From an uncultured Marinilabiliaceae bacterium (GTDB taxonomy: Bacteria; Bacteroidota; Bacteroidia; Bacteroidales; Marinilabiliaceae), in the NCBI GenBank assembly GCA_964521525.1, contig CAZFTD010000001.1:11630-75629 (forward strand): a stretch of 64,000 nt of DNA, read 5' to 3'. The notes beneath the pieces are model-generated. The model was not told where the DNA came from. It saw nothing but the letters and a program-made list of their open reading frames with translations, and ran no database searches. Below are positions 299 through 52,951 of this stretch, piece after piece. The position numbers and the translations under genes are program-made. Every line of letters begins with the position of its first letter. The stretch's first letter is position 1.

Positions 299-654
299 AA
301 TATTGAAATCCAGATAACAGTTTAATTTTAAATTTTTGATTAGTTTGCTGTATTGTAACAACACCTCATTTGTATAGAAGGTTCTAAATCCCTTTTTTAA
401 AGCTTTTTGTTCTGCTAAAATTTAATACATTTGAAAATCTTTGTTTTTAGTTGGTACAATACTTAAATATTTGCTAATTTGAGAAATATAAGCTGGATTG
501 AATTGATTATAGATGATTATTTTAGGCCATTATCTCAATTTGTTTTGGTTATAATATTATTTTGTTTATTTCCAGATAAAAATATGGCATAAGAGGCCTT
601 GATTCATTATATTGCAGGTTACTTAACAAAAAAGAGAAGCAACAGACAGAAAAA

Positions 655-958
655 AGGCCATGGTAGTGCGATTAATAATTATAAACGCCTTAACCTTTAT
701 GGCCATAACAAAAAAACTCTAAGCATATGAAACGAGCATGTGTTATCAGACATAAAAACAATACATCAACATGCGAGTTCCGTCATACCTTTTAAATTAA
801 TTTTATTATGATGAAACGAGCCATGAGGCACTTTTTCTCACCCAAGAGAATCGAAGATCGGCGCAGCCAAGGACTAACTGGCGAGTTCTCCCGATAAATC
901 GGGACAACCTGTTCCGCAGTGCGGAAAGCTATGTGACAATTAAAAATAAAACTTTAGA
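655..958 (+). repeat. Tandem array of the ATGAAACGAG/CGAGTTC structured intergenic repeat (locus A: 3' fragments, a short unit at 727-~805, a long unit at 808-958)
   Basis: Box ATGAAACGAG at 727-736 and 811-820. CGAGTTC at 774-780 and 882-888. Hairpins at 885-908 and 912-926. Clear nucleotide similarity to 41291-41400, 46435-46745 and the reverse complement of 52835-52951. Confidence 0.75.
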
Positions 959-961
959 CAC

Positions 962-2671
962 ATGAAAATAAAACTAAACATTGCTCAAAAACTGATTTAT
1001 GGCTTTGGCCTTATTCTGATTGTGGTATTCCTTAACAGTTTGTTGACACTGTTTACTGTTAACAGAAGTACAAGCCTTAACAACAGGGTAACTGGCATTT
1101 ATACTCCTACCGTTCAATCTCTGGGCGATTTGGGCATGCTTATTACCCAAAGCAAAATGCTTATCCGTAACTGGGTTTTTATCGACAAACAGCCAGGAAC
1201 ACCAGATAAGCTCAGGCTTGTGGAGCTCCATAACACAGATTTCTCTGCCATTAAAAACAGGTTGAACGAATTAACAAAACAGTGGAACAATGAAACCGAC
1301 CAGGAAGCACTTGGTTTAATCTTTCATAAAATTGACTCACTTTTTACCATGCATAAGTACATCATGAATAACCTCAACTCCTTTGATGCTTACGAAGATG
1401 CCTTTATCATGTTTGAAGTGGAAGATATGGTAATGGAAGGTGGAACCATCATAACTCTTACTGATGAAATTTCTGCCAATATTCTTGACCTTTCAACCAA
1501 ATATAACGAAGGCAACAATGTTGCTCTATCAAATATGAGGGGGGCCTTTTCAAGATTAACATGGGTAGTAATAATCATGGGTCTTATCTTGTTCGCCGCC
1601 TCTTTTGCCATCGCCTGGTTGCTTTATTCTTCTATTGTACATCCACTTATTAAGGGTGTTGATTTTGCCAAAGCCATTGGAGCAGGCAATCTGAATGCTA
1701 AAGTTGAAGTGAATCAGGATGATGAAATTGGGGTTTTAGCCAAAGAGTTGAGCAATATGGCTGAAAACTTGAAAAACACCGTGGTAACCATTAAAGATAA
1801 TGCCTTAAACCTTGTTAATTCAAGCGAGTTACTAAAAACCAGTTCTCTTCAGTTATCACGCGGATCGGCCGACCAGGCTGCTTCGGCTGAGGAAGTTTCT
1901 ACTTCTATAGAAGAAATGGTTGCCAATATTGATCAAAATACCGACAACGCTATTCAAACCGAGAAAATTACAGTCGAAACTGCTAAGGATGTTAACGTTG
2001 CAAACCAATTAAGTTCCGAAGCAGCCAAAGCTATGACCGCCATCTCTGAGAAAATATCCATGATTAGCGATATTGCTTTTCAAACCAATATTCTTGCGCT
2101 TAACGCTGCCGTTGAAGCAGCCAGAGCCGGAGAACATGGCCGTGGTTTCTCTGTTGTAGCCGCCGAAGTTCGCAAATTGGCCGAACGAAGCAAAACTGCT
2201 GCTGATGAAATTGTTACACTTGTTAACAAAGGGTTAAAAGTTTCTCAGGAAGCCGGCAACAAAACAAAACTGCTTGTTCCCGATATTGAGAAAACAACTG
2301 TACTGATTAAAGAAATTGCCGCTGCCAGTATGGAACAAAAAACCGGTGCCGACCAGATTAATCTGGCCATGCAGCAATTAAATATGATTACACAGGAAAA
2401 TGCCTCCTCGTCTGACCAGTTAACCCAAAGCTCCGACTTGTTATTGCGATTGGCGCAAAACCTACAGGAAGCTGTTAGCTATTTTACAATAGGTAACGAA
2501 GAAGCTGAAGGCAAAAAACGTTCAGCTGATTCAACCAAAACAGAAACTAAAACGCCGGAGCCTGATAAGCAAAAGACAACTAAAAAAACCACCTCGGCTA
2601 AACAACGCACGGTTCAGGACCTTTCAAATCTTGAAAAAGAATTTGACATGGATAATTATGAAAAGTTTTAA
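962..2671 (+). CDS. Methyl-accepting chemotaxis protein (2 TM segments, periplasmic sensor, HAMP, MCP signalling domain)
   Basis: Signalling hairpin motif [38 protein letters not shown]. Candidate methylation motifs [10 protein letters not shown] and [13 protein letters not shown] segments near residues 10-32 and 200-222. Confidence 0.95.
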
Positions 2672-2692
2672 CGCTTTTTCGTAACCTTTTTA

Positions 2693-3022
2693 ATGCTAAA
2701 ATGTATGACTGAAAACTTTAATATCAATTTTAAAGAAAATAAAGATCAATTAGAAATGGTTTTTAGCGGTCAGTTAACAATTAATTCAATTGCTAAGATA
2801 ACCGAAAGCGTTAAATCTCATTTGAAAAACCCAACCGTGGTTAACATTCAGGTTAAAGACGCAGATAACATTGATCTGACTTTTATTCAATTGTTGCAGG
2901 CAATCAAAAACAGCGGAAAGAAAAAAGGCTTCGACGTCAATGTCTCCTTTTCTGTATCGGACGACATTAAAACCCTGCTTAAAAATGCCGGATTTACAAA
3001 CTATTTAAACGATAAAAACTAA
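2693..3022 (+). CDS. STAS-domain (anti-sigma-antagonist-like) protein
   Basis: About 105 aa with a SpoIIAA-like pattern (...VKDADNIDLTFIQLLQAI...). The start could instead be the ATG at 2705. Confidence 0.6.
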   Translation: MLKCMTENFNINFKENKDQLEMVFSGQLTINSIAKITESVKSHLKNPTVVNIQVKDADNIDLTFIQLLQAIKNSGKKKGFDVNVSFSVSDDIKTLLKNAGFTNYLNDKN

Positions 3023-3036
3023 AACTCTATATTACT

Positions 3037-3402
3037 ATGGCTAAAACCGTTTTAATTGTTGATGACTCCGAAAGTATCCGTGAAGTCGTAAATTTTACTC
3101 TGCAAAACGAAGGGTATGACGTTCTGGTGGGCATAGATGGAGAAGATGCACTCAAATTTTTGGATGGTCGTCACATCGACATTATTATTACCGACTTGCA
3201 CATGCCTAACTTAGATGGGCTGGGTCTCATCAGAAAGGTTCGGGAGATGGATAACTACAAACATATACCCATTCTTTTTCTGACCACTGAATCGCAGGCA
3301 GCGAAAAAAATGGAAGCCAAAGAAGCCGGCGCCACCGGTTGGATTATAAAACCATTTGTACCTGCTAAACTTTTATCAGCTATTTCAAGGGTTATTAGAT
3401 AA
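3037..3402 (+). CDS. cheY: CheY-like single-domain response regulator
   Basis: Receiver motifs: VLIVDDSE, IIITDLHMPNLDG, FLTTES, IIKPF. Confidence 0.9.
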   Translation: MAKTVLIVDDSESIREVVNFTLQNEGYDVLVGIDGEDALKFLDGRHIDIIITDLHMPNLDGLGLIRKVREMDNYKHIPILFLTTESQAAKKMEAKEAGATGWIIKPFVPAKLLSAISRVIR

Positions 3403-3411
3403 TTTAAAGCT

Positions 3412-3750
3412 ATGCTTGAAAATATTAAAAAGCAATTCTACAACAATACCATTAAAGAATTGCTCTTTATAAATGCTAAATTATCTGAAGAATCAATACA
3501 TCCCAACGAAAGTATTTCGCTGGTAAACAGCGTTTTTTCAATTACCCATCAAATTAGCGGTACCGGGCCGATGCTTGGTTTTATGAACACATCAAAGATT
3601 TCAAAGAAAGTTGAAAAAACCTTTTATGAAATAAGAGCAGGCGAAAAAGAACTTACTGCACCCATTATTATGCAAACCAGGCGCGCCCTGGAATCCATAA
3701 TTGACTCCATGAATCAGGAGTTTAACAGCAGTTTGGTTATTTCAGAGTAA
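3412..3750 (+). CDS. Stand-alone Hpt-like phosphotransfer protein
   Basis: THQISGTGPMLGF fits the Hpt motif H-x-(L/I)-(K/S)-G-x-(G/A)-x-x-x-G. The predicted fold is small and helical. It sits directly upstream of cheA. Confidence 0.55.
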   Translation: MLENIKKQFYNNTIKELLFINAKLSEESIHPNESISLVNSVFSITHQISGTGPMLGFMNTSKISKKVEKTFYEIRAGEKELTAPIIMQTRRALESIIDSMNQEFNSSLVISE

Positions 3751-3793
3751 GTGTTTCTGGTTGTATTAATAATGCTATAAAGCTTCACATCTC

Positions 3794-5845
3794 ATGATAG
3801 ATAAGTTTAGAGCGAAGTTTGTTGAAGAGTCCACGGATAATATTCACGATCTGGAAGAAGCGCTGCTCCTTCTGGAAAAGGACATGAGAAATAAAGAACT
3901 TATTGAACGCATTTTCAGGGCCATGCACTCCCTGAAAGGCGGCGGAGCTATGTTTGGCTTTAACCATTTGAGTGAATTTACCCACCATCTCGAAACCATT
4001 TTCGATTATGTTCGTGGCGGAAAACTTCAGGTGAGCACGGAACTTATTTCACTTACATTCTCAGCTATTGACCAAATAAACTTCCTCCTTAAAACCGGAG
4101 ACCTTACCCGTGAAGAAGATTTAGCCGAGCAAAAAGCGTTTATAAAAAAACTGCAATCATTTTTATCAGGATTCGAATCATCCTCTCAAACGTTAGAAAA
4201 AAAGGAATCCCTTTCAGATGTTTCTTCTGCTCCTGAAACCAATGAGAAAACATATCTAATAAGTTTTCTACCACATGAAGATTTGTTGAAAAACGGTACC
4301 AACCCGTTTTATCTGCTGGACGACCTTCATGCTATGGGCAATGCCATTACTCTGGCGTTTGCTCATAAAACACCCTCGCTTGATTTGTTCGAAGTCTCTA
4401 CCAATTATTGTTTTTGGCAGGTAATTTTAAGCTCTGCTGAATCAATTAACGAAATCAGAGATGTTTTTATTTTTGTTGAAGATGAGTGCGAACTTCATAT
4501 TGACCTGATTTCTGAAACTTCAATTGTTAACCGACCCGAAGTAAAAGCCCTGATAGAAAAAGCTTTGCAAACAAACACCCAGCTATCTGTCGACGATTTT
4601 AAACAAAGCGAATGGACCCGAACCGAGGAACAAAAAGATACCGACGATAAAAAGAAAGCATTTTTAAAAGAACACAAAATAGCCAGTATCAGGGTTGCTT
4701 CGCATAAAATTGACGAGTTGGTAACTCTGGTAAGCGAAATGGTTACCATTCAGGCACAATTGTCGTTATATGCCGAAAATAGTGGAGACCCCACTATAAT
4801 GGCGCTTACCGAGAATATCCAGAAGCTTACCCGTCAGTTGCGCGATAACGCTTTCGATGTAAGCCTGATTCCTTTACAAAGCGAATTAATGCGATTTCAA
4901 AGGTTGGTACGCGACCTGTCGAAAGAACAGAAAAAGGATATTGATTTTATAATTGAAGGTGGCGATTTGGAATTGGACAAAAACATTGTAGAGCATTTAA
5001 CCGATCCCCTGCTTCATATTTTGCGAAATTCAATCGACCATGGAATTGAACTGCCACAAGAACGAATTGCAGCCGGCAAATCGCCCAAGGGAACTATAAT
5101 TTTTAAAGCCTACCACTCCGGAGCAAACGTAATTATTGAAATTACCGACGACGGAAAAGGGATTGACCCTGAATTTATTAAACAAAAAGCCGTTAGTAAA
5201 GGAATTATTGAACAGGGAGCAACCCTTGATAAAAAGGAAATTTTTGACCTGCTTTTCATCAGTGGATTCTCAACCCGCGAATCTGTCTCTGATTTGTCTG
5301 GCCGAGGCGTTGGTATGGATGTGGTCAGAAGAAAAATCGCAAACATAAGAGGAGAAGTTTCGTTGGAATCAGAAACCGGCAAAGGAACCATAATTACAAT
5401 TCGTCTGCCACTAACGCTTTCTATTATCGATGGATTATTGGTTAAAGTTGCCAACAATCAATATGTAATTCCTATTTCGGCCATAGAGCAAATTTTCGCT
5501 TTTGACCAATCACAAATGAAAAATACATTCAACAATGTGGTTGTTATCAACAACGAACAAATACCATATATTATACTGCGCAACCTTTTTAACGAACCAA
5601 AACACGATGACGATAAATTCCAGATGGTTTTGATTCGTAGCGAGGAGAAAAAACTAGGAATTATTGTAGATGCTGTAATTGGTGAATACCAAACAGTTGT
5701 AAAACCTTTGGGCCGGTACCTGAAAAAACAGGAAATTATTTCGGGAGCTTCCATTATGGGCGATGGAGCAATTTCCTTAGTAATTGATACCTCACGATTA
5801 TTCCAATCAAGGAGAAGCAGAAAAGCAGCTCACGTTGAAAACTAA
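3794..5845 (+). CDS. cheA: Chemotaxis histidine kinase CheA
   Basis: P1 Hpt motif RAMHSLKGGGAMFGF. HATPase motifs HILRNSIDHGIE, DDGKGID and GRGVGMDVV. C-terminal CheW-like domain. Confidence 0.95.
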   Translation: MIDKFRAKFVEESTDNIHDLEEALLLLEKDMRNKELIERIFRAMHSLKGGGAMFGFNHLSEFTHHLETIFDYVRGGKLQVSTELISLTFSAIDQINFLLKTGDLTREEDLAEQKAFIKKLQSFLSGFESSSQTLEKKESLSDVSSAPETNEKTYLISFLPHEDLLKNGTNPFYLLDDLHAMGNAITLAFAHKTPSLDLFEVSTNYCFWQVILSSAESINEIRDVFIFVEDECELHIDLISETSIVNRPEVKALIEKALQTNTQLSVDDFKQSEWTRTEEQKDTDDKKKAFLKEHKIASIRVASHKIDELVTLVSEMVTIQAQLSLYAENSGDPTIMALTENIQKLTRQLRDNAFDVSLIPLQSELMRFQRLVRDLSKEQKKDIDFIIEGGDLELDKNIVEHLTDPLLHILRNSIDHGIELPQERIAAGKSPKGTIIFKAYHSGANVIIEITDDGKGIDPEFIKQKAVSKGIIEQGATLDKKEIFDLLFISGFSTRESVSDLSGRGVGMDVVRRKIANIRGEVSLESETGKGTIITIRLPLTLSIIDGLLVKVANNQYVIPISAIEQIFAFDQSQMKNTFNNVVVINNEQIPYIILRNLFNEPKHDDDKFQMVLIRSEEKKLGIIVDAVIGEYQTVVKPLGRYLKKQEIISGASIMGDGAISLVIDTSRLFQSRRSRKAAHVEN

Positions 5846-5870
5846 AAGCGCCACCTGAATAAAAGACATT

Positions 5871-6323
5871 ATGGAAAAAGCCAATAAAACCATATTATCA
5901 TTTCAAATCAACCAGAACGAATTTGCCGTTGATGCGCTTCAGGTTGTTCATATTCTCGAAGTTCCACCGCTCATTACCAGAGTACCCAATACATCTGCTT
6001 TTATGAAGGGCGTTATCAACCTGCATGGAAACATTATTCCCGTGGTTGATATGAGATTAATTATGGAAGAAGAGATTGGGATTACAAATGCCGATAATGC
6101 CATAATCGTTATTAGCCCTGCTGACACACAGGACGCGCGCTTTGGCATAATGGTGGATATGGTAAAAGAAGTTTTAGAGATAGATACTGCCAACCTTAAA
6201 GAAACCATTCTGGAAGGGAAAAAAGGATTGATTGAATCATATGAGGGCACCTTATTGTATAATAATACCTTCATTCATATAATTGATATTAATCATTTGG
6301 CCGAAATAGTTGAAAACCAATAG
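5871..6323 (+). CDS. cheW: CheW coupling protein
   Basis: 150 aa with the CheW pattern FAVDALQVVHILEVPPLITRVPNTSAFMKGVINLHGNIIPVVDM. Confidence 0.9.
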   Translation: MEKANKTILSFQINQNEFAVDALQVVHILEVPPLITRVPNTSAFMKGVINLHGNIIPVVDMRLIMEEEIGITNADNAIIVISPADTQDARFGIMVDMVKEVLEIDTANLKETILEGKKGLIESYEGTLLYNNTFIHIIDINHLAEIVENQ

Positions 6324-6337
6324 GATAACCAAAAAAT

Positions 6338-6826
6338 ATGGCTTCTGTACTGAATTCATACCTCACGTTCAAAATCGGAGAAGAAGTTTTTGGCGTAAAC
6401 GTGGCAAAAGTAATGGAGATTCGAGAGTATCAGGCTCCAAAACCACTTCCACAAACCATGCCTTTTGTTTCCGGTGTAATTGAATACCGTGACGAGATTA
6501 TTCCATTAATTGATACTGGCATTAAGTTTGGCATGTCTCCCATCACTATACAATCTGGCACCTGCATCGTTATCCTGCAATTAATCAGCGATACGCTTGG
6601 AAAAACCTATAGAGTTGGTATTTTGGTTGATGCCGTTGCCGATGTATTGGAGTGTGACGATACAAACATGAAAAACATCAACGACGATTATAAGCCCCAT
6701 TATATCTATTCTACCTGCCAAACCGACAGCCATTTGGTTTTTATTCTGAATGCTGATGTGGTTTTCAGTCAGAAAGAAATTATTGGGATGCTTGATATGG
6801 TCAATAAATTAAAAAAACAGGCCTGA
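6338..6826 (+). CDS. cheW: CheW coupling protein (second paralogue)
   Basis: FGVNVAKVMEIREYQAPKPLPQTMPFVSGVIEYRDEIIPLID. Confidence 0.85.
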   Translation: MASVLNSYLTFKIGEEVFGVNVAKVMEIREYQAPKPLPQTMPFVSGVIEYRDEIIPLIDTGIKFGMSPITIQSGTCIVILQLISDTLGKTYRVGILVDAVADVLECDDTNMKNINDDYKPHYIYSTCQTDSHLVFILNADVVFSQKEIIGMLDMVNKLKKQA

Positions 6827-6829
6827 TAA

Positions 6830-7699
6830 ATGGAGAAAACCATAAATACATCGGGAAGCTTCGATTGCTTTAAAGCGGAACTTTCGGAAAGTGATTTCCA
6901 GGTTTTCAGCCGGTTTATATATTCAGAATACGGTATTAAAATGCCGCCCATTAAGCGAATTATGCTTCAAGGGCGGCTGTTGAAAAGAATCAGAGAGCTC
7001 AACATGAGTTCTTATTCTGAATACAAAGAATACTTTTTCAGTAAAGAAGGTCAGGATAAAGAATTACTACAGTTTTTAAACGTAGTAACAACCAATAAAA
7101 CAGATTTTTTCAGGGAACCGGTTCATTTTAATTTTTTAAATGATACCGTGCTTCCTGCTTTCAGAAGTCAAAACACAAGCGGCCAACCGTTTAAGGTTTG
7201 GAGTGCCGGTTGCTCAAGCGGCGAAGAACCATATACCATATCTGTTGTTCTTAACGAATTTGAACGGCTCAATCCTAACTTTAGGTTTGATATTCTTGGA
7301 TCTGACATCTCAACCCAAATGCTTGAAAAAGCGGCCAAAGGCATTTACCAGGCTAACAAGCTTGTTACAGTACCAATGGAACTGAAGAAACGATATTTTC
7401 TAAAAAGCAAAGATCCCCATAACCAAACAGTTAGGGTGCACCCGCTTTTGCAAAAAAATATTCGGTTAACCTATCTTAATTTGATGGATAACCTATACTC
7501 TATAAAAGAAACATTCGATGTGATTTTCTGTCGTAATGTGTTAATCTATTTCGACAGACAAACACAGGAAAGAGTAATTAACAAGCTTTGTTTGCAACTT
7601 AAACCGGGAGGTTATTTTTTTATCGGACATTCCGAGTCGCTGTCGGGCATGAATGTACCTCTTGAACACATCAAACCAACCATATTTAAAAAACTGTAA
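6830..7699 (+). CDS. cheR: CheR chemotaxis protein methyltransferase
   Basis: TTNKTDFFREPVHF, VWSAGCSSGEEPYT, GSDIS...AAKGIY, IFCRNVLIYFD. Confidence 0.92.
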   Translation: MEKTINTSGSFDCFKAELSESDFQVFSRFIYSEYGIKMPPIKRIMLQGRLLKRIRELNMSSYSEYKEYFFSKEGQDKELLQFLNVVTTNKTDFFREPVHFNFLNDTVLPAFRSQNTSGQPFKVWSAGCSSGEEPYTISVVLNEFERLNPNFRFDILGSDISTQMLEKAAKGIYQANKLVTVPMELKKRYFLKSKDPHNQTVRVHPLLQKNIRLTYLNLMDNLYSIKETFDVIFCRNVLIYFDRQTQERVINKLCLQLKPGGYFFIGHSESLSGMNVPLEHIKPTIFKKL

Positions 7700-7734
7700 G
7701 TATAACAATCAAGACGAAATAACACAGCAAAACT

Positions 7735-8634
7735 ATGACGAACATTTCTGACAAACAGCTTTTGAAAGAGTTAAAAACCAAACTCGAAGAGCGTAAGAAA
7801 TATGAGGAAGAGATTAGCCTGCTATCACAGGAGCTTCAAACCGTTACTCAACGTTTTAAAGAATCGGAAGCATTAAAAAGCCACTTTATCTCAAATATAT
7901 CCAATGAAATAGTAAACCCTTTTACGTCCATTCTTGGTTTATCCAAATCTATTCTTTCAGTTGAGAAAAACGACTGGAAAAAAGTGGTAAGCATGGTTGC
8001 ATTAATCCATAGCGAAGCCTTTAATCTCGACTTCCAGCTGAAAAACATTTTTGTGGCCGCAAAAATTGAAGCCGGCGAAGTGGTTCCAAACATTGCAAAG
8101 GTTAACGTTCGCAACATTGTTCAAACCATGATCGATTCATTCGGCCTTGTGGCACGCAAAATGGCCATCGACATCGAGTTTCAATTCAACATTGAATACG
8201 GATTTGGCAAAAACTTCTATTTTAAAACCGATAGCGAAAAATTAAAGCTTATACTGAGTAACCTCATGAATAATGCTTTAAAATACAGCTATAAGGATAG
8301 CAAAGTTATAATTACCGTTTGGGTAGATGAAGATATTCTAAATATTTCGGTACAAGACTTTGGCACAGGCATTTCTGAAAAAAATCAAAAAGTTATCTTC
8401 GAACGCTTCAAGCGACTGGATTCAGGCATTAACTCGATTAACCGTGGACACGGACTTGGGCTATCCATAACAAAAGCCTTACTGGATGTTATGGGCGGTA
8501 CCATTGAAATCGAAAGTAAAAAAGGAGAAGGGTCAACCTTCTATGTCAGAATTCCGGAAGCAAAAAATATTGTTGAAGGGTTCAGTGGTGAAGGAAATGA
8601 TATTTTCTTCGATGGAGATGATGAGATTTTTTAA
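7735..8634 (+). CDS. Soluble histidine-kinase paralogue (coiled coil, DHp-like and HATPase domains) with Asn in place of the phospho-acceptor His
   Basis: H-box region KSHFISNISNEIVNPFTSILG versus the canonical FLQNMSHEIRTPLNAVIG seen in the 55067-58780 kinase. N-box NLMNNALKYS, G1 DFGTGI and G2 GHGLGLSI are intact. Confidence 0.8.
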   Translation: MTNISDKQLLKELKTKLEERKKYEEEISLLSQELQTVTQRFKESEALKSHFISNISNEIVNPFTSILGLSKSILSVEKNDWKKVVSMVALIHSEAFNLDFQLKNIFVAAKIEAGEVVPNIAKVNVRNIVQTMIDSFGLVARKMAIDIEFQFNIEYGFGKNFYFKTDSEKLKLILSNLMNNALKYSYKDSKVIITVWVDEDILNISVQDFGTGISEKNQKVIFERFKRLDSGINSINRGHGLGLSITKALLDVMGGTIEIESKKGEGSTFYVRIPEAKNIVEGFSGEGNDIFFDGDDEIF

Positions 8635-8645
8635 GAAAGCATTAG

Positions 8646-9116
8646 ATGGACCAATATTTACAACATTTTTTGTATCCTTCTACGCTGTTTGCCAGTAAAG
8701 AACCTTACATGGTTAAAACCATTCTGGGCTCATGCGTGGCAATATGTCTGTACGATCCGGTACTGAAAGTTGGAGGCATCAATCATTATATGCTACCCAA
8801 CTGGAACGGTAACGATCTGGCATCGCCAAAGTACGGAAATATTGCCATTGAAAAGCTGATTGAACGGATGGTGTTTTATGGATGTAAAAAAGAAAACCTA
8901 CAGGCGAAAATATTCGGCGGGGGCGACCTCATTGCTGCCGACAGAAGCGCCATGATGATAGGAGAGCGCAATATTCGGGTAGCCAGGTTAATTCTGGAAG
9001 AAAAGAACATTCCCGTAGTTGCCTCAAGTACCGGAGGACGAAAAGGCCGTAAAATATTGTTTTTCACCGATACTGGCGAGGTTCGGCATAAGTTTCTGGA
9101 TAAAAAGGAGTATTAG
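8646..9116 (+). CDS. cheD: CheD chemoreceptor glutamine deamidase
   Basis: 156 aa. [13 protein letters not shown] (catalytic Cys region) and KIFGGG. Confidence 0.88.
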
Positions 9117-9135
9117 ATACCTGGCAAGTTCAGCT

Positions 9136-10215
9136 ATGGAGAAAAAAATCAGGGTATTAGTTGTTGATGATTCGGCAGTGGTTAGGCAGAGCCTCACCAC
9201 CATTCTGGAGTCGGACCCCCAGATTGAAGTTATGGGCACTGCCGCCGATCCGCTTATTGCCGTAAAAAAAATAATGAAAGAAGTCCCTGATGTAATTACC
9301 CTTGATATTGAAATGCCGCGAATGGATGGACTCACCTTCCTTCGTAAAATAATGTCGCAACACCCTATCCCGGTTGTCGTTATTTCATCGTTAACAAGCC
9401 AGGGAACCGAAGTTGCCATGAAGGCTCTTGAATATGGCGCTTCCGAAATTATTGGGAAGCCAGCCATGAATGCTGCACAGTTTTTTAACGAATCAAAAAT
9501 TATACTGTGCGATGCAGTTAAAGCAGCCTCTCAGGCTAAACTCTCTCGTCTGAAAATTGCTTCCTCACCTACAGTTGAGTTGGTTAAACCCAAGTATTCG
9601 GCCGACATAATTCTTGAGAAAGCCTCACTAAAAAGCAGGATCGTTGATACTGAAAAAATAATAGTATTGGGAGCTTCCACCGGCGGCACCGAAGCCATAC
9701 GTCTGTTATTACGTAATTTGCCTTCACGTATGCCCGGAATTGCCATTGTACAGCATATGCCCGAAGGATTTACCAAATCATTTGCCAACAGCCTTAATGC
9801 CAACTCAGAACTGGAAGTAAAAGAAGCCGAAGATGGCGACCGGCTCTATCAGGGTCGTGTGCTCATTGCTCCCGGAAATCATCATATGTTGCTTAAAAGA
9901 GTCGGAAAAGAATATTCAGTGGAAGTGAAGGAAGGCCCGCTGGTTAACCGACACCGCCCATCGGTTGATGTGCTTTTCCGCTCTGCCGCCAGGTACGCGG
10001 GCCAAAATGCCACTGGTATTTTGCTTACCGGTATGGGTGCCGATGGTGCAAAAGGGTTGTTAGAATTGAAAGAAGCTGGCGCCAATACTATTGCACAGGA
10101 CCAGCAAACATCCGTTGTTTTTGGTATGCCCAAGGAGGCTATTAAATTAGGTGCGGCTGATGAAATTCTAGGTATAGATGCCATTGTTCCATTCCTGATT
10201 AAAAAATTTCACTAA
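9136..10215 (+). CDS. cheB: CheB receiver-methylesterase
   Basis: Start reassigned to the ATG at 9136 ([13 protein letters not shown]), because the 9019 start would overlap cheD by about 100 nt. REC domain plus [24 protein letters not shown] and [11 protein letters not shown]. Confidence 0.92.
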
Positions 10216-23282: not shown

Positions 23283-23393
23283 TTTTGCATAAATATCCAT
23301 GCAAAAAGTTAGAAGATAAAATTGTGAAATTAAAGCCGGCTGTTACATGTAACCGCTTGTTTTATTTTACCTTAACAAACAAATTTTGACAAT

Positions 23394-23846
23394 ATGAAAA
23401 AAGTATTATTGGGCTTAATACTTGTACTTTCAATAAGTTCTTTCAGCGCCTCGGCACAACAGTGTGATGAATCGCTTAAGAAACAGGCTTTGAAAGAAAT
23501 GGGAGACAGCCAATACATTAAAGACTTTTCCATTGATTTGCGAAAAGCCAAAAAAGATATGAAAACAGGCTTTGTAAAATTCTCTGTGATTTTGCACAGT
23601 CGCAACCAATATAGATTTACAGTTGTTAACCACCCCGGTAATCCCGAAGAGGTTGTGATGCAATTGTTTGATGGTGACCGTTTGCTAATCAGCAATTTTG
23701 AAGGTGGAAAAATATCAAAAGCCCCTGATTTTGTTTGCCGTACCACCAAGGTTTACCACCTCACCTTTTCGTTCCGAAGTGGTGAAGAGGGTTGTGCCGA
23801 GGCTGTAATTTCTTTAGTGAAACAGTATGCAGAAGGTGAATTATAA
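23394..23846 (+). CDS. Small secreted protein of unknown function
   Basis: Signal peptide MKKVLLGLILVLSISSFSASA. I recognise no family. Confidence 0.6.
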   Translation: MKKVLLGLILVLSISSFSASAQQCDESLKKQALKEMGDSQYIKDFSIDLRKAKKDMKTGFVKFSVILHSRNQYRFTVVNHPGNPEEVVMQLFDGDRLLISNFEGGKISKAPDFVCRTTKVYHLTFSFRSGEEGCAEAVISLVKQYAEGEL

Positions 23847-36002: not shown

Positions 36003-36153
36003 CCGATAATAGTTATTTTTCAATATGATTTATAATTTTGAATTTCCTGATTTTTTGTAAAACTTGTAAGCTATAATTTTTAAATTAAGCTGTGTTGTTT
36101 TACTTAAATTATACAAATAATTAACTTTAGCTCAATAAACTAATTATTTTCTG

Positions 36154-41290: not shown

Positions 41291-41400
41291 ATGAAACGAG
41301 TTATGAGAATGAGTTTTCACAACGGAGTATTACTATTGTAGCGAGTTCTCCCGATTAATCGGGACTGGCTATATGGCCGTTAAAAATCAAATTATAAACA
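41291..41400 (+). repeat. Single short unit of the ATGAAACGAG/CGAGTTC repeat (locus B)
   Basis: ATGAAACGAG at 41291. GCGAGTTCTCCCGATTAATCGGGAC at 41341-41365, with the palindrome TCCCGATTAATCGGGA at 41349-41364. The 3' end AAAAATCAAATTATAAACA resembles 46548-46569. Confidence 0.75.
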
Positions 41401-41401
41401 G

Positions 41402-42238
41402 ATGAATAATTGGTTTAAAGTTCTGATACATATTTTGTTATTTATCACTTTTTTATTTAGTTCTTGTAAAAGCAAGGATAAATTGCTTCGCTATGAAACC
41501 ATCAAATCAATTGATGAGGATGTGTTGGTGAATAATATTTTGGTGAATGAACTAAATTATAATGCTCTTTATTTTAAGCGATTAACTATTGATTTTGATG
41601 AGAATGGAAATTCCCGATCTGTTAGGGCTAGTATGTATATTAAAAGGGATTCTTCTATTATTATTTCTATAGTGCCTTTAATGGGTATTGAGATTTTCAG
41701 AGTTTCACTCAGTAAAAGCGAGATTAAGGTTATAGATCGTCTTAATCGGAAGGTTATGGTTTCTGATTACAAAAAATTATCAGAACGTTTTTTTGTTGAA
41801 ATTAACTATAATATTATTGAGGGATTATTAACCAATTCTCTTTTTTCTTATCCAAACTATAATCCTGAGTTGATAAAGGATTACGCTGCATATCATCAAG
41901 ATTCTTTTTATTCACTCCGTTCGATTAATATGCTTCAATACGAGCGGTTATCAAAACGGAATTCTGATTTATTTCTTCATCAGGTAAATATATTACCAGG
42001 TATTTATAAAATTAATGAAAACCGAATTACTAAAACATTGAATCAGATGTTGTTTGTTACTGAATATAAAAATTTTAGTACTTTGGGGAATACACAATTT
42101 CCTTATTCTGTTAATATAAGTGCAAAACAGGGAAACAATAACTTTAAACTTAATTTTACTTTTTCCGATATTGAGGTTGATGGTTCCAATTCACTGAATT
42201 TCAGAATTCCAGATAAATATGAAATTGTATCTTTCTAA
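41402..42238 (+). CDS. DUF4292-like (LolB-fold) lipoprotein
   Basis: Lipobox FSSC. Conserved position between the TPR lipoprotein and the M23 peptidase. The family assignment is from memory. Confidence 0.5.
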   Translation: MNNWFKVLIHILLFITFLFSSCKSKDKLLRYETIKSIDEDVLVNNILVNELNYNALYFKRLTIDFDENGNSRSVRASMYIKRDSSIIISIVPLMGIEIFRVSLSKSEIKVIDRLNRKVMVSDYKKLSERFFVEINYNIIEGLLTNSLFSYPNYNPELIKDYAAYHQDSFYSLRSINMLQYERLSKRNSDLFLHQVNILPGIYKINENRITKTLNQMLFVTEYKNFSTLGNTQFPYSVNISAKQGNNNFKLNFTFSDIEVDGSNSLNFRIPDKYEIVSF

Positions 42239-46390: not shown

Positions 46391-46406
46391 TGTTCCACGT
46401 GGAACA
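46391..46406. promoter_or_regulatory. 16-bp perfect palindrome TGTTCCACGTGGAACA directly after the mnmG stop codon
   Basis: Read directly from the sequence. It differs from 31645-31660 only at the symmetric positions 5 and 12. Confidence 0.35.
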
Positions 46407-46434
46407 AGGTTGATGGCAACTTAATTTGGCGAAT

Positions 46435-46745
46435 ATGAAACGAGTCTTCAGTACGAGTTCTCATAAAGACGATACACTGAGTTTAGTCGAAATGAGCATA
46501 ACTAATATAACGAGTTCACCCGGTAAGACAGGACAGGCAATGCGATGGTTAATAATCAAATTATAAACACATGAAACGAACATGTTTGCGAAAAAAACAC
46601 AACTAGTCCCGACTTTTTTGGGGAAACAGCAATGAATTGAAAATCGGCGGAGCCAAAATAGCAAACATGGAGTTGCCCCGATAACTTGGGGCAACCTGTT
46701 CCGGAGTGCGGAAAGCAATCTGACCTTAAACTATAAATTATTTAC
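46435..46745 (+). repeat. Two tandem units of the ATGAAACGAG/CGAGTTC repeat (locus C: unit 1 at 46435-46569, unit 2 at 46571-46745)
   Basis: Boxes at 46435 and 46571. Hairpins GTTGCCCCGATAACTTGGGGCAAC (46672-46695) and TTCCGGAGTGCGGAA (46699-46713). Unit 1 contains an intact 43-codon ORF (46435-46566). Confidence 0.75.
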
Positions 46746-46747
46746 GG

Positions 46748-48391
46748 ATGAATAGCTATTCAATTAAAGGGAATGTTGTTGATGTTTTTAACCGCAATAT
46801 CTATAAGGGAGAGGTTTTTGTAGAACAAGGAAAGATTGTTCGAATAAAAGAAAACAGTTCTGTTCCCGATGTATTTATTCTCCCAGGTTTAATCGATGCG
46901 CATGTTCATATTGAAAGTTCCATGCTCATCCCATCGCGTTTTGCCCAGATGGTTGTTCCACATGGAACAATTGGAGTTGTTTCAGATCCGCACGAAATTG
47001 CCAATGTGTTAGGAGAGGAGGGGGTACTCTTTATGATTGAGGATGGCAAATCGGTGCCTTTTAAGTTCTTCTTTGGTGCGCCTTCATGTGTTCCGGCAAC
47101 ATCGTTCGAAGCTTCAGGCGCTGAACTGGATTCTGCCGCTGTTGAGAAACTTCTGAACAATCCCGACATCTATTTTTTGTCGGAAATGATGAATTTTCCC
47201 GGTGTAATTCATAACGACTCTGGTGTGATTGGTAAAATTGAAGTGGCAAAAGCACTCAATAAGAAAATTGATGGACATGCGCCCGGACTATCAGGAGAGG
47301 CGCTAATGAGGTATGTTGCCGCTGGCATAGAAACCGACCATGAGTGTGCAACACTTGCCGAGGCTCAGGAGAAAATTGCCCTTGGCATGAAAATCCAAAT
47401 CCGTGAGGGAAGTGCAGCCCGAAACTTTAAAGCCCTGGCCCCGCTGTTACCGCTCTCACCAAATTCGGTAATGCTTTGTACCGACGACAGTCATCCCGAT
47501 GAAATTTTAAACCACGGGCATATTAACCGAATCATTCGGTTGGGTTTAAAGATGGGTTATAATCTTTTTGATTTGTTGCAAGCGTGTACCATTAACCCGG
47601 CGCTTCATTATAACCTGCCAGTTGGATTGTTGCGGGTGGGCGATGCGGCTGATTTTATAGTTGTAGATAGTTTTGAGCATTTCAATGTTCAGCAAACATA
47701 TATTAATGGAGTTTGTGTCTTTGACGTCGGCCAGGGAGTTCTTTTTCCTCTTCGTCCGGTTACTGCCATAAATAAATTTCGAACCGAAGAAATATTCGAA
47801 GGGCAATTAAAAGTTGTTATGCCTGAAAATAAATCGAAGGTTAAAACAATTGTGGTTGAAGACGGAGAGCTTCTGACAGGCTCCGATGGTTATGAGCCGA
47901 AATTGGCAACTAATAGAGAAGTGCAGTCTGACACCAATGCTGATGTGTTAAAGTTGGTGGTGGTTAACCGTTATAACAATACTCCTCCAAGTGTTGGCTT
48001 TGTGAAAAACATAGGGTTAAAACAGGGTGCACTTGCCAGCTCGGTGGCTCACGATAGTCATAATATTGTTGCTGTGGGTACTGATGATCAAGCGTTGCTA
48101 AAGGCTATTAATGCTTTGATTAATACAAATGGCGGAATAGTGGCGGTTAACAATTCCTCTGTTGATGTTCTGGAGTTGCCCGTGGCTGGCATAATGAGCC
48201 TTGACGATGGAGAAACAGTAGCCAAACAATATCAAAATCTGAACAAAATTGCACATTCACTTGGCACTCCGCTTAAAGCTCCATTTATGACATTGAGCTT
48301 TTTGTCCCTTTTAGTCATACCATCTCTTAAGTTGGGCGACAGAGGTTTGTTTGACGTGAATTCATTCTCCTTTACCTCGTTGTTCGAATAA
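46748..48391 (+). CDS. ade: Adenine deaminase
   Basis: PGLIDAHVHIESSM, SDPHEIANV, DGHAPG, TDHE. About 547 aa. Confidence 0.9.
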   Translation: MNSYSIKGNVVDVFNRNIYKGEVFVEQGKIVRIKENSSVPDVFILPGLIDAHVHIESSMLIPSRFAQMVVPHGTIGVVSDPHEIANVLGEEGVLFMIEDGKSVPFKFFFGAPSCVPATSFEASGAELDSAAVEKLLNNPDIYFLSEMMNFPGVIHNDSGVIGKIEVAKALNKKIDGHAPGLSGEALMRYVAAGIETDHECATLAEAQEKIALGMKIQIREGSAARNFKALAPLLPLSPNSVMLCTDDSHPDEILNHGHINRIIRLGLKMGYNLFDLLQACTINPALHYNLPVGLLRVGDAADFIVVDSFEHFNVQQTYINGVCVFDVGQGVLFPLRPVTAINKFRTEEIFEGQLKVVMPENKSKVKTIVVEDGELLTGSDGYEPKLATNREVQSDTNADVLKLVVVNRYNNTPPSVGFVKNIGLKQGALASSVAHDSHNIVAVGTDDQALLKAINALINTNGGIVAVNNSSVDVLELPVAGIMSLDDGETVAKQYQNLNKIAHSLGTPLKAPFMTLSFLSLLVIPSLKLGDRGLFDVNSFSFTSLFE

Positions 48392-52414: not shown

Positions 52415-52834
52415 GAGTATCTTTAATTAAATTAATTGTTTATTTAAATTCAACAACTTATTAACCGATTTAAATGTATAATTGTTTTGTTTCGATAGTG
52501 TTTTAAGTACCGTTTTATTGATACTATAAATTTTGATGTTTCAGCCATATCAGCAACAACGATATAGATTGGTCCTTTCTTAAACTGATGTCAGGCAACC
52601 TGATTCATTTATAGTTTTGCTAAAAGTCCATTTCTTTAGGCACATATGCAAACTTAATTGCTAAAGGTGCTTTTGGCCTAAACAATTTATATAAACGATA
52701 TAAAATCAACAATATAAACTAAACGGCTGCAGGTTTTGATGAATAAGCCTGCTGTTTTTATCAAATTTATACATAATTTTTGCTTGAGTGAGAAAACTCT
52801 TCGGTAACTTTAAAATTTCATCGGTTAATAATTT

Positions 52835-52951
52835 TTAAAAGAAAGCAGGATTGCCTTCCGCGCTATGGAACAGTTGTCCCGATTTATCAGGAGAATTCGC
52901 ATGATGAATTTTAATCTGTGTGTCTCCGCCCTTGGCAAATGCTCGTTTCAT
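52835..52951 (-). repeat. Single long unit of the ATGAAACGAG repeat on the reverse strand (locus D)
   Basis: The reverse complement reads ATGAAACGAGCA...GCGAATTCTCCTGATAAATCGGGACAACTGTTCCATAGCGCGGAAGGC. It contains an intact 38-codon ORF. Confidence 0.7.

What the first reader, a model, noticed from the sequence alone, without database searches (positions are those of the whole stretch)
46435..46745. Repeat family shows RNA-like covariation in one unit but a protein-like substitution pattern in another
RNA signal. The first hairpin is GTTCTCCCGA-TAAA-TCGGGACAAC in the long unit at locus A (885-908) and GTTGCCCCGA-TAAC-TTGGGGCAAC here (46672-46695). A C-C mismatch becomes a G-C pair, a T-A pair becomes C-G, and a G-C pair becomes a G-T wobble. 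Locus D has a T-G wobble at another position. Both wobbles are allowed only if the strand co-oriented with the downstream gene is transcribed.

Coding signal. Unit 1 here is an intact 43-codon ORF (46435-46566, MKRVFSTSSHKDDTLSLVEMSITNITSSPGKTGQAMRWLIIKL). Locus D is an intact 38-codon ORF (MKRAFAKGGDTQIKIHHANSPDKSGQLFHSAEGNPAFF). Across the hairpin region the two differ as TCA CCC GGT AAG ACA GGA CAG versus TCT CCT GAT AAA TCG GGA CAA. That is four synonymous third-position changes plus the replacements Asp/Gly and Ser/Thr, while the hairpin itself is lost in unit 1. The other units are out of frame or stopped. The family may therefore mix small-protein genes, their decayed copies and structured RNA, or it may be dual-function.
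Basis: seen in the sequence. Interest (0 to 1): 0.7.

Follow-up and report, generated by a model that had tools for sequence, protein, structure and literature searches.

The report
Mobile repeat that targets start codons
The flagged stretch holds two tandem copies of a small mobile DNA repeat, common in Marinilabiliales/Bacteroidales genomes, that lands exactly on ATGAAA start codons and rebuilds the gene's leader and start codon inside a base-paired helix. Its short 'MKR...' reading frames are by-products, not conserved protein genes.

Summary
The interpretation changes once about 150 related copies are collected.

The basic unit is about 95 nt: ATGAAACGAG, a covarying stem (P1) with a variable top, GGCGAGTTC, CATnTG, an A-rich arm, CAn'ATGAAA. 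The last ATG is the start codon of the downstream gene in 88 of 117 informative units. It pairs with the CATnTG box, with strong covariation (C:G 32, G:C 28, A:T 21).

The unit is mobile. Four filled/empty site pairs among close relatives show insertion exactly at ATGAAA start codons. These include unit 2 of the finding (46571-46747) and units A1+A2 at locus A.

Its arms are identical in 28 of 33 copies, so it shows little covariation.

The coding signal does not hold. The conserved block is read in all three frames. Orthologues show no third-position excess. The locus D orthologue in one relative lacks the ATG and is frame-shifted.

No match was found in Rfam, plasmids, phages or my literature searches. 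Whether the structure acts in mRNA or in single-stranded DNA during transposition is unresolved.

The parts
46435..46570 (+). Unit C1 (unit 1 of the finding). An old, decayed copy. It has the 5' ATGAAACGAG at 46435, an inserted module ACACTGAG..GTCGAAATGAG at 46474-46496, AACGAGTTC at 46509-46517, and a decayed palindrome at 46518-46533. The decayed anti-start box is at 46538-46548 and the A-rich arm ends at AACAC (46566-46570).
   Evidence: Orthologous single units sit at the same site in L134 and L135. The predicted fold is no better than shuffles, z = +1.4. The covariance model finds only its 3' part at 46492-46576, 22 bits. There is no third-position excess against the orthologues.
46571..46747 (+). 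Unit C2 (unit 2 of the finding). A lineage-specific insertion of the long subfamily. P1 arms are at 46581-46589 and 46661-46669, followed by GAGTTG at 46670-46675. The nested palindromes are listed as separate parts. The anti-start box CAATCTGACC is at 46716-46725 and the A-rich arm runs to 46747.
   Evidence: It is absent from L134 and L135, where unit C1 abuts the adenine deaminase ATGAAAAGC directly. Window and L134 are sisters, with L135 as outgroup. The fold shows the 9-bp P1 and the 10-bp hairpin.
46672..46695 (+). It is an optional nested palindromic module of the TCCCGA-loop-TCGGGA type.
   Evidence: Most units lack it. The same palindrome sometimes replaces the P2 hairpin and also occurs outside units. 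Its arms are nearly invariant across copies.
46699..46713 (+). Second nested palindrome (TTCCGGAGTGCGGAA), part of the module CTGTTCCGnAGyGCGGAAAG.
   Evidence: It is found only in window units A2, C2 and D, and in inverted orientation inside a unit in L004.
46748..48391 (+). Adenine deaminase gene. Its ATG (46748-46750) is the terminal ATG of unit C2.
   Evidence: Pfam Adenine_deam_C and Amidohydro_1. The N-terminus MNSYS matches MKSYS in relatives that lack C2.
727..810 (+). Unit A1, a basic unit. P1 is GCATG/CATGC. The anti-start box CGTCATA (781-787) pairs with TATGATG (807-813).
   Evidence: Covariance-model hit of 51.9 bits, E = 4e-8. Fold. It is absent from the close relative L141.
811..961 (+). 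Unit A2, a long unit. TGGCGAGTTC is at 879-888, palindrome 1 at 889-904, palindrome 2 at 912-926, and the anti-start box CTATGTGAC at 929-937. GACAC (957-961) precedes the MCP gene ATG at 962.
   Evidence: In L141 the 235 bp at 727-961 are missing and the MCP gene follows ...CTCTAAGCAT|ATGAAAATAAAAC directly.
600..726 (+). Older decayed 3' arms of earlier units (A0) upstream of A1. An example is TTTATGGCCATAACAAAAAAACTCTAAGCAT.
   Evidence: Read from the sequence. Shared with L141. This is an inference by resemblance and is not scored by the model.
41291..41401 (+). Unit B, with palindrome 1 at 41349-41364. Its terminal ATG at 41402 starts the DUF4292 gene.
   Evidence: Covariance-model hit of 40.9 bits. 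The empty site in L137 reads TAG-AAGA-ATGAAG. Orthologous units in L134 and L135 differ by block indels of 25 and 21 nt.
52816..52951 (-). Unit D, an old orphan copy. Palindrome 1 is at 52877-52892 and palindrome 2 at 52856-52870. The terminal ATGAAATTTTAA is not a gene start.
   Evidence: Orthologues exist in L138 and L139. L138 has AAG in place of the ATG and 1-nt indels. Each orthologue's hairpin carries one defect.
23347..23399 (+). Possible remnant of a unit's 3' arm, ending on the ATG of ORF 23394-23846.
   Evidence: Weak covariance-model hit of 21.4 bits, E = 0.066. Not followed up.

Best explanation
The finding covers two tandem copies (C1 old, C2 recent) of a non-autonomous mobile element.

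Shown:
- The element inserts in the sense orientation exactly at an ATGAAA start codon.
- The resident ATGAAA stays at the element's 5' end, still behind the gene's native initiation region. It becomes the start of a short, unconserved upstream ORF (the 'MKR...' frames).
- The element's 3' end supplies a new A-rich, Bacteroidia-type initiation region plus a new ATGAAA, from which the gene is read.
- Each insertion re-creates the target, so arrays grow in tandem.
- The element has conserved ends and a variable middle that accepts nested palindromes such as TCCCGA-loop-TCGGGA.
- Two helices are kept by compensatory change. One is stem P1, flanked by CGAG/CGAG. The other is a 6-bp helix, CATnTG:CAn'ATG, that contains the new start codon.

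Inferred:
- The element is moved in trans by an unidentified transposase that is strand-specific and sequence-specific. A single-strand (HUH-type) enzyme seems most likely, because the ends are asymmetric, the target is fixed, and an internal box pairs with both ATGAA ends.
- In the mRNA the same helix probably damps initiation at the new start, or couples it to ribosomes arriving from the old start.
For: Family and anatomy:
- More than 130 copies were found in Bacteroidota MAGs and metagenomes.
- A 94-sequence alignment and consensus fold were built.

Start-codon helix:
- The central pair is C:G 32, G:C 28, A:T 21, with 10 not forming a standard pair. Overall 94% of cells pair, against 19-34% when one strand is slid. 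The covariation score exceeds all 500 shuffles.
- The pair differs between nearest-neighbour units in 29 of 73 cases.

P1 covariation in copies not selected by my search pattern: GCATG/CATGC, GTTAT/GTAGC, CATGTTTGC/GCAAACATG, CTACTCTAAT/ATTAGAGTAG.

Link to genes:
- The terminal ATG opens an ORF of at least 60 aa in 88 of 117 informative units.
- The terminal hexamer is ATGAAA in 88% of units, against about 18% of window gene starts.

Mobility, four filled/empty pairs, all at ATGAA(A):
- MCP start: window filled, L141 empty.
- mnmG start: L134 filled, window and L135 empty.
- C2: window only.
- DUF4292 start: empty in L137.

Old start retained: the upstream flanks show the Bacteroidia initiation signature, with A at 75%/71% at -12/-11 and 61% at -6. 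This agrees with PMC6847099.

No shared function: 78 downstream proteins hit 96 Pfam families, with at most 4 proteins per family.

Not coding.

Old copies decay: C1 folds no better than shuffles, and each locus D orthologue carries a hairpin defect.
Against: - No transposase or autonomous partner was identified.
- The ends are not terminal inverted repeats.
- The basic unit has no strong hairpin at its 3' end, unlike IS200/IS605 ends.
- A 6-bp target duplication cannot be told apart from insertion 3' of ATGAAA by an element that ends in ATGAAA.
- G.U and A.C cells are equally frequent in the start helix, about 8 each. Strand specificity therefore rests only on the domain-1 energy asymmetry: the forward strand is lower in 89 of 123 units.
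- The metagenome set was selected with a fixed 5' pattern, so the invariance of ATGAAACGAGCCAT and GGCGAGTT is by construction.
- Units are related by descent, so counts of covarying cells overstate the number of independent events.
- No expression data were available.
Confidence: 0.6

Rival explanations
1. The element is a host-beneficial cis-regulatory leader RNA. It works as a translational attenuator, thermometer or protein/sRNA-responsive switch by sequestering the start codon. Mobility is only how the module spreads, and the conserved structure is selected in the mRNA.
For: - The helix contains the start codon of real genes and always lies in the sense orientation.
- The 23-nt loop carries the A-rich determinants used by Bacteroidia ribosomes, and C at -3 is kept for pairing although A is the better base there.
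- mRNA structure tunes initiation in this phylum (PMC6847099).
- Domain 1 is more stable on the sense strand.
- An orthologous pair keeps the helix through a G.U wobble (L005 against L010).
Against: - Downstream genes share no function.
- The internal 'core' is dispensable (L073).
- Old copies at working gene starts have 1-2 mismatches in the helix, and C1 has lost its structure.
- There is no excess of G.U over A.C.
- About 20% of units are orphans with no gene behind them.
Confidence: 0.3
2. Specifically, the element is a palindrome-associated derivative of an IS200/IS605-type element, or a REP/RAYT-type element. It is moved as single-stranded DNA by a Y1 HUH transposase. The GTTCCATnTG box acts as the guide that pairs with both cleavage sites (ATGAAA at the left, CAn'ATGAAA at the right).
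For: - There are no terminal inverted repeats, and the target and orientation are fixed.
- Empty sites are clean.
- There is a hairpin next to the left junction, and an internal box is complementary to both ends.
- IS608 recognises its target by base pairing with an internal sequence (PMC5934647 abstract).
- At the ade site, ATGAAA|AGC becomes ATGAAA[...ATGAAT]AGC. This fits insertion 3' of ATGAAA without needing an extra mutation.
Against: - No TnpA or RAYT gene was looked for or found.
- The right end of the basic unit lacks a compact hairpin.
- Known guides are 4-5 nt, lie 5' of the hairpin foot and use partly non-canonical pairs (my knowledge of the family).
- The nested TCCCGA palindromes lack the GTAG signature of REPs.
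Confidence: 0.25
3. The units are small-protein genes, or dual-function RNA/protein genes, encoding MKR... peptides. Other copies are pseudogenes.
For: - The ORFs in C1 and D are intact.
- The L134 orthologue of C1 keeps a 43-codon ORF in the same frame.
- The 5' ATG sits behind a native initiation region, so these ORFs are probably translated.
Against: - The conserved nucleotide block is read in all three frames.
- ORF lengths range from 5 to 43 codons.
- Length variation in the variable region is not in multiples of three.
- Substitutions are not enriched at third positions, and second-position changes are as common.
- L138 lacks the ATG and is frame-shifted. L135 has GTG and a stop in the hairpin loop.
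Confidence: 0.03
4. The element is a metabolite-binding riboswitch or another already described RNA family upstream of the adenine deaminase gene.
For: It lies in the 5' leader of a purine-metabolism gene and shows conserved structure.
Against: - Rfam 15 gives no match at gathering scores, and nothing relevant at E up to 10.
- The same unit precedes 96 unrelated gene families.
- There is no conserved ligand-pocket core (L073).
- C2 is absent from close relatives that carry the same gene.
Confidence: 0.02

Closest known systems
Bacterial MITE-like small interspersed repeats (Correia/NEMIS, ERIC, RUP, BOX; reviewed in PMC2229807 and PMC3184786)
   Same: Short (about 95-180 bp), non-coding, multi-copy and intergenic. 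They are polymorphic between close relatives, can fold into a stem-loop, are co-transcribed with neighbouring genes, and can carry nested modules.
   Different: - The ends are not inverted repeats of each other.
- Insertion is at one fixed hexamer that is a start codon, always in the sense orientation.
- The element brings its own initiation region and start codon.
IS200/IS605-derived palindrome-associated elements and REP/REPIN elements (HUH single-strand transposition; PMC6006769, PMC5934647, PMC3597680)
   Same: Asymmetric ends, a fixed short target with a fixed orientation, clean empty sites, a hairpin plus an internal sequence complementary to the junctions, and small nested palindromes.
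   Different: - There is no compact hairpin at the right end.
- The pairing is 6-9 Watson-Crick bp across a 23-nt loop.
- No TnpA or RAYT has been linked to the element.
- The target is 6 nt and coincides with start codons.
MIRUs of Mycobacterium (from my own knowledge: Supply et al. 1997)
   Same: Tandem 40-100-bp units between genes of operons, oriented with the genes, carrying small ORFs that abut the neighbouring genes' start and stop codons.
   Different: - MIRU ORFs are in-frame multiples thought to give translational coupling.
- Here frames are not conserved, the units are not minisatellite-like, and there is a defined stem plus a start-codon helix.
Start-codon or ribosome-binding-site sequestering leaders (RNA thermometers, translational riboswitch platforms)
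   Same: A helix that buries the initiation codon while leaving an upstream loop single-stranded.
   Different: - Those are single-locus, gene-specific and not mobile.
- No sensor domain is conserved here.
- No Rfam family matches.
Enterobacterial RU-1/RU-2/RU-3 repeats that carry ORFs (PMC2759123)
   Same: Small mobile repeats in which open reading frames can be read.
   Different: Here the test could be run, and the ORFs fail it.

Membership tests
Classical MITE | Terminal inverted repeats at both ends | tested here: not met
   The 5' end ATGAAACGAGCCATG is complementary to the internal CATGGCGAGTTCCAT, not to the 3' end ...AAACAnATGAAA.
Classical MITE | Short, non-coding, multi-copy, with presence/absence variation between relatives | tested here: met
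   Units are about 95-180 bp, with more than 130 copies found. Four filled/empty pairs were found. No conserved frame exists.
Classical MITE | Target-site duplication of fixed length and variable sequence | tested here: inconclusive
   ATGAA(A) is present at both junctions in every case. It is always the same sequence, so a duplication cannot be told from a fixed target plus an element-borne copy.
IS200/IS605-derived element (PATE) | Insertion 3' of a specific short target, no inverted repeats, no duplication, precise empty sites | tested here: inconclusive
   The data are compatible with this, and the ade site fits it best. They do not exclude a 5-6-bp duplication.
IS200/IS605-derived element (PATE) | Subterminal hairpins at both ends | tested here: inconclusive
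   There is a strong stem next to the left junction. At the right end there is only a 6-bp helix closing a 23-nt loop.
IS200/IS605-derived element (PATE) | A Y1 HUH transposase (TnpA) in the same genomes | not tested
   Only 20 of the window's ORFs were scanned, and none is a transposase. No whole genome was available.
REP / REPIN | A 20-40-nt GC-rich palindrome with a conserved GTAG-type head, linked to a RAYT gene | tested here: inconclusive
   The nested TCCCGA-loop-TCGGGA module is a short palindrome found inside and outside units. It has no GTAG head. RAYT was not looked for.
Described structured RNA family (Rfam 15), including riboswitches, thermometers and ribozymes | Match to a curated covariance model | tested here: not met
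   There are no hits at gathering scores in the window or in 25 loci. Only chance-level hits appear at E up to 10.
Riboswitch | A conserved ligand-binding core and association with one pathway | tested here: not met
   The core is dispensable (L073). Downstream of the units lie 96 Pfam families.
Small-protein / leader-peptide gene | Conserved reading frame and purifying selection on the peptide | tested here: not met
   Frame spread is 37/36/50. Codon-position counts are 8/15/15 and similar. Orthologues lose the start or the frame.
MIRU-like coupling repeats | Unit ORFs in frame, with stop and start overlapping the flanking genes | tested here: not met
   The upstream ORF ends before GGCGAG in 41 units, inside the 3' arm in 55, and at or after the ATG in 16. 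There is no fixed overlap.
Integron attC site | RYYYAAC...GTTRRRY boxes with an unpaired spacer, arranged in cassette arrays | tested here: not met
   Only the AAC...GTT resemblance exists. The flanking genes are syntenic housekeeping genes, not cassettes.

The most novel reading that the evidence does not exclude
This is a previously undescribed class of bacterial mobile element that homes to start codons. It turns the resident start into a throw-away upstream ORF. It re-creates the gene's start about 90 nt downstream, behind a portable Bacteroidia-type initiation region and inside a conserved helix. In effect it is a transposable translational-control cassette. It could place hundreds of unrelated genes per genome under a common post-transcriptional input, such as temperature, ribosome traffic or a trans-acting factor. 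It is possibly moved by a guide-pairing single-strand transposase whose 'guide' doubles as the anti-start-codon sequence.
Probability: 0.3. Interest if true: 0.85.

Novelty: new variant of a known kind. Interest (0 to 1): 0.62.

Why it matters
If the reading is right, a selfish element has solved the 'safe landing' problem in an unusual way. It lands on the start codon itself and replaces the translation initiation region.

This would matter for three reasons:
- It gives a natural, repeated experiment on what a Shine-Dalgarno-less Bacteroidia ribosome needs to start.
- It points to a possible new target-recognition mechanism for a transposase, in which an internal box pairs with ATGAA.
- It warns annotators that in these genomes the first in-frame ATG, or a short 'MKR' ORF, can be the fossil of a displaced start codon.

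It also shows that a covariation-plus-ORF pattern in a handful of repeat copies can mislead.

Tried and rejected
- Rfam at gathering and at permissive thresholds, on the window and on 25 loci. It found nothing but tRNAs.
- BLAST of a consensus unit against plasmids and phages. No match.
- Literature searches for the sequence and for start-codon-targeting repeats in Bacteroidetes. Nothing relevant was found. The closest in spirit was the intergenic TAACTGA repeats of Beggiatoaceae.
- A hammerhead-like reading of the CACUGAG...GUCGAAG module. No Rfam support.
- An attC-like reading of AAC...GTT. The flanking genes are not cassettes.
- A bistable switch in which the 5' AUGAAAC and the gene's AUGAA compete for GUUCCAU. 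The minimum-free-energy folds let both domains form together, and the few 5' variants (ACG, CTG, AGG, GTG) are not compensated.
- A longer target duplication that includes the base before the ATG. The bases differ.
- G.U against A.C asymmetry to decide between RNA and DNA. Inconclusive: 8 against 8 in the start helix and 6 against 3 in the palindrome.
- A search for an autonomous copy among the held loci. All model hits are full short units.

Full report
**The observation.**
- 46435-46566 is an intact 43-codon ORF (MKRVFSTSSHKDD...). A second unit starts at 46571.
- The hairpin GTTGCCCCGA-TAAC-TTGGGGCAAC lies at 46672-46695. Its counterpart GTTCTCCCGA-TAAA-TCGGGACAAC lies at 885-908.
- Locus D, on the minus strand from 52951, is an intact 38-codon ORF with a T.G wobble in the hairpin.
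- ATGAAACGA occurs six times in the window against 0.84 expected. The units form repeat families D1, D3 and I4.
- Window units: A1 727-810, A2 811-961, B 41291-41401, C1 46435-46570, C2 46571-46747 and D 52951-52816 on the minus strand.

**Collecting relatives.**
- A scan of species-representative genomes with the hairpin pattern gave 12 loci. All are in Bacteroidota MAGs (Marinilabiliaceae, Prolixibacteraceae, Bacteroidales).
- These showed a common 5' part. I used that part, leaving the hairpin free, to scan metagenomes.
- The TCCCGA-loop-TCGGGA hairpin is an optional insert after GAGTTC. It sometimes replaces the variable hairpin and also occurs outside units.
- The second hairpin module (CTGTTCCGCAGyGCGGAAAG) occurs only in window units A2, C2 and D, and in inverted orientation inside a unit in L004. 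This points to a DNA-level nested palindrome rather than an RNA domain.

**Structure.**
- On 94 basic units, RNAalifold predicts AAC:GUU plus GCC:GGC, and a helix CAUnUG:CAn'AUG.
- The central pair of that helix is C:G in 32 units, G:C in 28 and A:U in 21, with 10 not forming a standard pair. The next pair is U:A in 74 and C:G in 10.
- Overall 94% of cells pair, against 19-34% when one strand is slid by 1-3 columns. The covariation score exceeds all 500 shuffles.
- The pair state is almost uncoupled from overall similarity. In 29 of 73 nearest-neighbour pairs the two units carry different Watson-Crick pairs, for example at 93-94% identity elsewhere.
- P1 was fixed by my search pattern. Copies found only by the covariance model R1 show it covarying: GCATG/CATGC (A1, L018, L120), GTTAT/GTAGC (B), CATGTTGC/GCAACATG (L098), CATGTTTGC/GCAAACATG (C2) and CTACTCTAAT/ATTAGAGTAG (L125).
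- P1 is flanked on both sides by CGAG, which can form tandem G.A pairs.
- L073 lacks the whole internal CACACAGG...ATGATTAT segment, so there is no conserved pocket.
- Minimum-free-energy folds give the stem and the start-codon helix side by side, with z-scores from -2.3 to -5.0 for good units. Unit C1 is no better than shuffles, at +1.4.

**The terminal ATG is a gene start.**
- It opens an ORF of at least 60 aa in 88 of 123 units. Six more run off their contig. Of the 29 short cases, 5 are the next unit of a tandem pair.
- In the window the genes are a methyl-accepting chemotaxis protein (MCP), a DUF4292 protein and adenine deaminase.
- Across 78 non-redundant downstream proteins, 96 Pfam families are hit and none by more than four proteins. 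This is not a regulon or a riboswitch-type association.

**Mobility.**
Close relatives were found through the neighbouring proteins. Four presence/absence pairs resulted.
1. MCP start. L141 (97% protein identity, 93% nt in the gene) reads ...CTCTAAGCAT|ATGAAA|ATAAAAC. The window has 235 bp (A1+A2) between two ATGAAA copies.
2. mnmG start. L134 carries a 65-bit basic unit: TATCG ATGAAA[CATCC...GACAC ATGAAA]TTTGAT. The window and L135 are empty.
3. Adenine deaminase start. L134 and L135 have only the orthologue of C1, directly before ATGAAAAGC. The window has C2 in addition. Window and L134 are sisters (92%) and L135 is the outgroup (86-87%), so C2 is a gain.
4. DUF4292 start. L137 is empty, reading TAG-AAGA-ATGAAG.

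All four insertions sit exactly at ATGAA(A) of a start codon, in the sense orientation. Orthologous units also differ by whole-block indels of 25 and 21 nt.

**What the 5' ATG is.**
- The 25 nt upstream of the units' 5' ATGAAAC are not conserved in sequence. They do show A at 75%/71% at -12/-11 and 61% at -6.
- This is the initiation signature described for Bacteroidia (adenines at -11 to -14, -6 and -3; PMC6847099).
- The 5' ATGAAA is therefore the hit gene's original start codon. The 'MKR...' frames are what a ribosome reads when it starts there and runs into the element.
- The element's own arm has A at -13 to -11 and at -6, but C (89%) at -3, where it pairs with the G of CATnTG.
- The terminal hexamer is ATGAAA in 88% of units, against about 18% of window gene starts.
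- In the window, ATGAAA occurs at 5 gene starts, 6 other intergenic places and 75 intragenic places. Fixed-target insertion plus loss of disruptive insertions would explain much of the preference for starts. It would not explain all of it: roughly 45% expected against 75-80% observed, on a small census.

**Coding test.**
- The distance from the 5' ATG to GGCGAGTT is 0, 1 or 2 mod 3 in 37, 36 and 50 units. The most conserved block is therefore read as WRVP, MASS or GEFH.
- The ORF ends before that block in 41 of 123 units. Lengths scatter from 5 to 43 codons.
Substitutions by codon position are 8/15/15, 14/12/18 and 9/16/15, so second positions change as often as third.
- L135 has GTG and a stop in the hairpin loop.
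- Locus D is orthologous in L138 and L139. L138 has AAG for the ATG and two 1-nt indels.
- The quoted 21-nt comparison has 5 of 7 differences at third positions. P is 0.045 uncorrected (my calculation), on a hand-picked paralogous pair.

**The flagged hairpin.**
Among 33 copies in sense orientation, 28 have identical arms. There are 176 Watson-Crick cells, 6 G.U, 3 A.C and 13 other. It is a conserved palindrome with one or two compensated variants (CCCCGA/TCGGGG, as in C2 and L134). This is not enough to argue for RNA-level selection or for a transcribed strand.

**RNA or DNA?**
- Domain 1 is more stable on the sense strand than on its complement (89 of 123 units, P = 2e-8). The whole unit is not.
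- G.U and A.C are equally common in the start helix.
- Old copies (B, C1, D and their orthologues) carry 1-2 helix or hairpin defects, and C1 has lost its fold. Recent copies (A1, A2, the L134 mnmG unit) are nearly intact.
- On balance this fits structure needed when the element moves better than structure maintained by the host. The sample is small.
- I therefore rank 'selfish element whose cis-signals also fold in the mRNA' first. A host-used translational module comes second, and a specific IS200/IS605-like mechanism is a plausible but untested version of the first.

**Comparison with known families.**
- Rfam 15 has no match. Plasmid and phage collections have none.
- My literature searches found no description of this element.
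- It resembles MITE-like repeats in size, copy number and polymorphism, but lacks terminal inverted repeats.
- It resembles IS200/IS605 derivatives in asymmetric ends, fixed target and internal pairing with the junctions, but lacks a right-end hairpin and a linked TnpA.
- It resembles MIRUs in lying between operon genes in tandem with small ORFs, but lacks frame conservation.
- I file it as a new variant of the small non-autonomous mobile repeats. It is distinguished by targeting start codons and replacing the initiation region.

**Caveats.**
- The metagenome set was chosen with a fixed 5' pattern.
- The units are related by descent.
- Genome-wide copy number is an extrapolation. The window holds six units at four loci in 64 kb.
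- No transposase, transcript or ribosome data were available.

Noticed in passing
window 962-10215: Locus A sits in front of a complete che-like operon in a Bacteroidota genome: MCP, STAS, CheY-like, a 112-aa ORF with no Pfam match in the window (its counterparts in relatives have weak Hpt hits), CheA, two CheW, CheR, a histidine kinase-type ATPase, CheD and CheB. The operon is syntenic in Alkalitalea saponilacus (L144).
   Followed up: partly
L134 about 430-690 (NadA to response-regulator spacer): A different insertion of about 240 bp is absent from the window (36003-36153) and from L135. It has inverted ends (AGACAATTAGAAG...GACGTGTCCCGG / CCGGAACACGTGTC...TCTATTGTCT) and a TCCCGG-TTTA-TCGGGA palindrome. 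It is probably a second MITE family in the same lineage.
   Followed up: no
alignment A1, columns 74/109 (the n:n' pair of CATnTG:CAn'ATG): The covarying pair is C:G, G:C or A:T but never T:A (0 of 94). A at -1 of the gene start is almost absent (2%). It switches between near-identical units far more often than double point mutation would suggest. Some conversion-like process or strong selection on master copies may be at work.
   Followed up: partly
window 46474-46496; L134 and L135 units at the B and C loci: A module of about 25 nt (GCGATGCACTGAG...GTCGAAGTGAG) is present or absent as a block between orthologous units. It contains a small ACU/AGU stem. Its origin is unknown and it has no Rfam match.
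   Followed up: partly
window 46391-46407: The perfect palindrome GTGTTCCACGTGGAACA lies immediately after the mnmG stop codon. It is conserved in L134 and L135 and is not followed by a T-run.
   Followed up: no
window 23347-23399: A weak match (21 bits, E = 0.066) to the unit's 3' arm ends on the ATG of ORF 23394-23846, which has no Pfam family. It is possibly an old remnant.
   Followed up: no
L004 2415-2552: A unit carries the composite 'half palindrome 1 + palindrome 2' module of the window's long units in reverse orientation inside its variable region.
   Followed up: partly
L013 184-281 (IMG/VR UViG 3300033562_001108): One basic unit lies on a contig classified as viral. The context was not examined.
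   Followed up: no
L141 about 1270-1300 compared with window about 505-520: A TGATGAT-type microsatellite (GATTGATGATTGATGATTGATGATT) upstream of the MCP gene is expanded in L141 relative to the window.
   Followed up: no
L143 1409-1509 compared with window 727-816: A distant relative (MCP 77% identical) carries a unit of the same A1-like subfamily at the same gene start. A 97% relative (L141) is empty there. This means either repeated insertion at a hot spot or precise excision in L141.
   Followed up: partly
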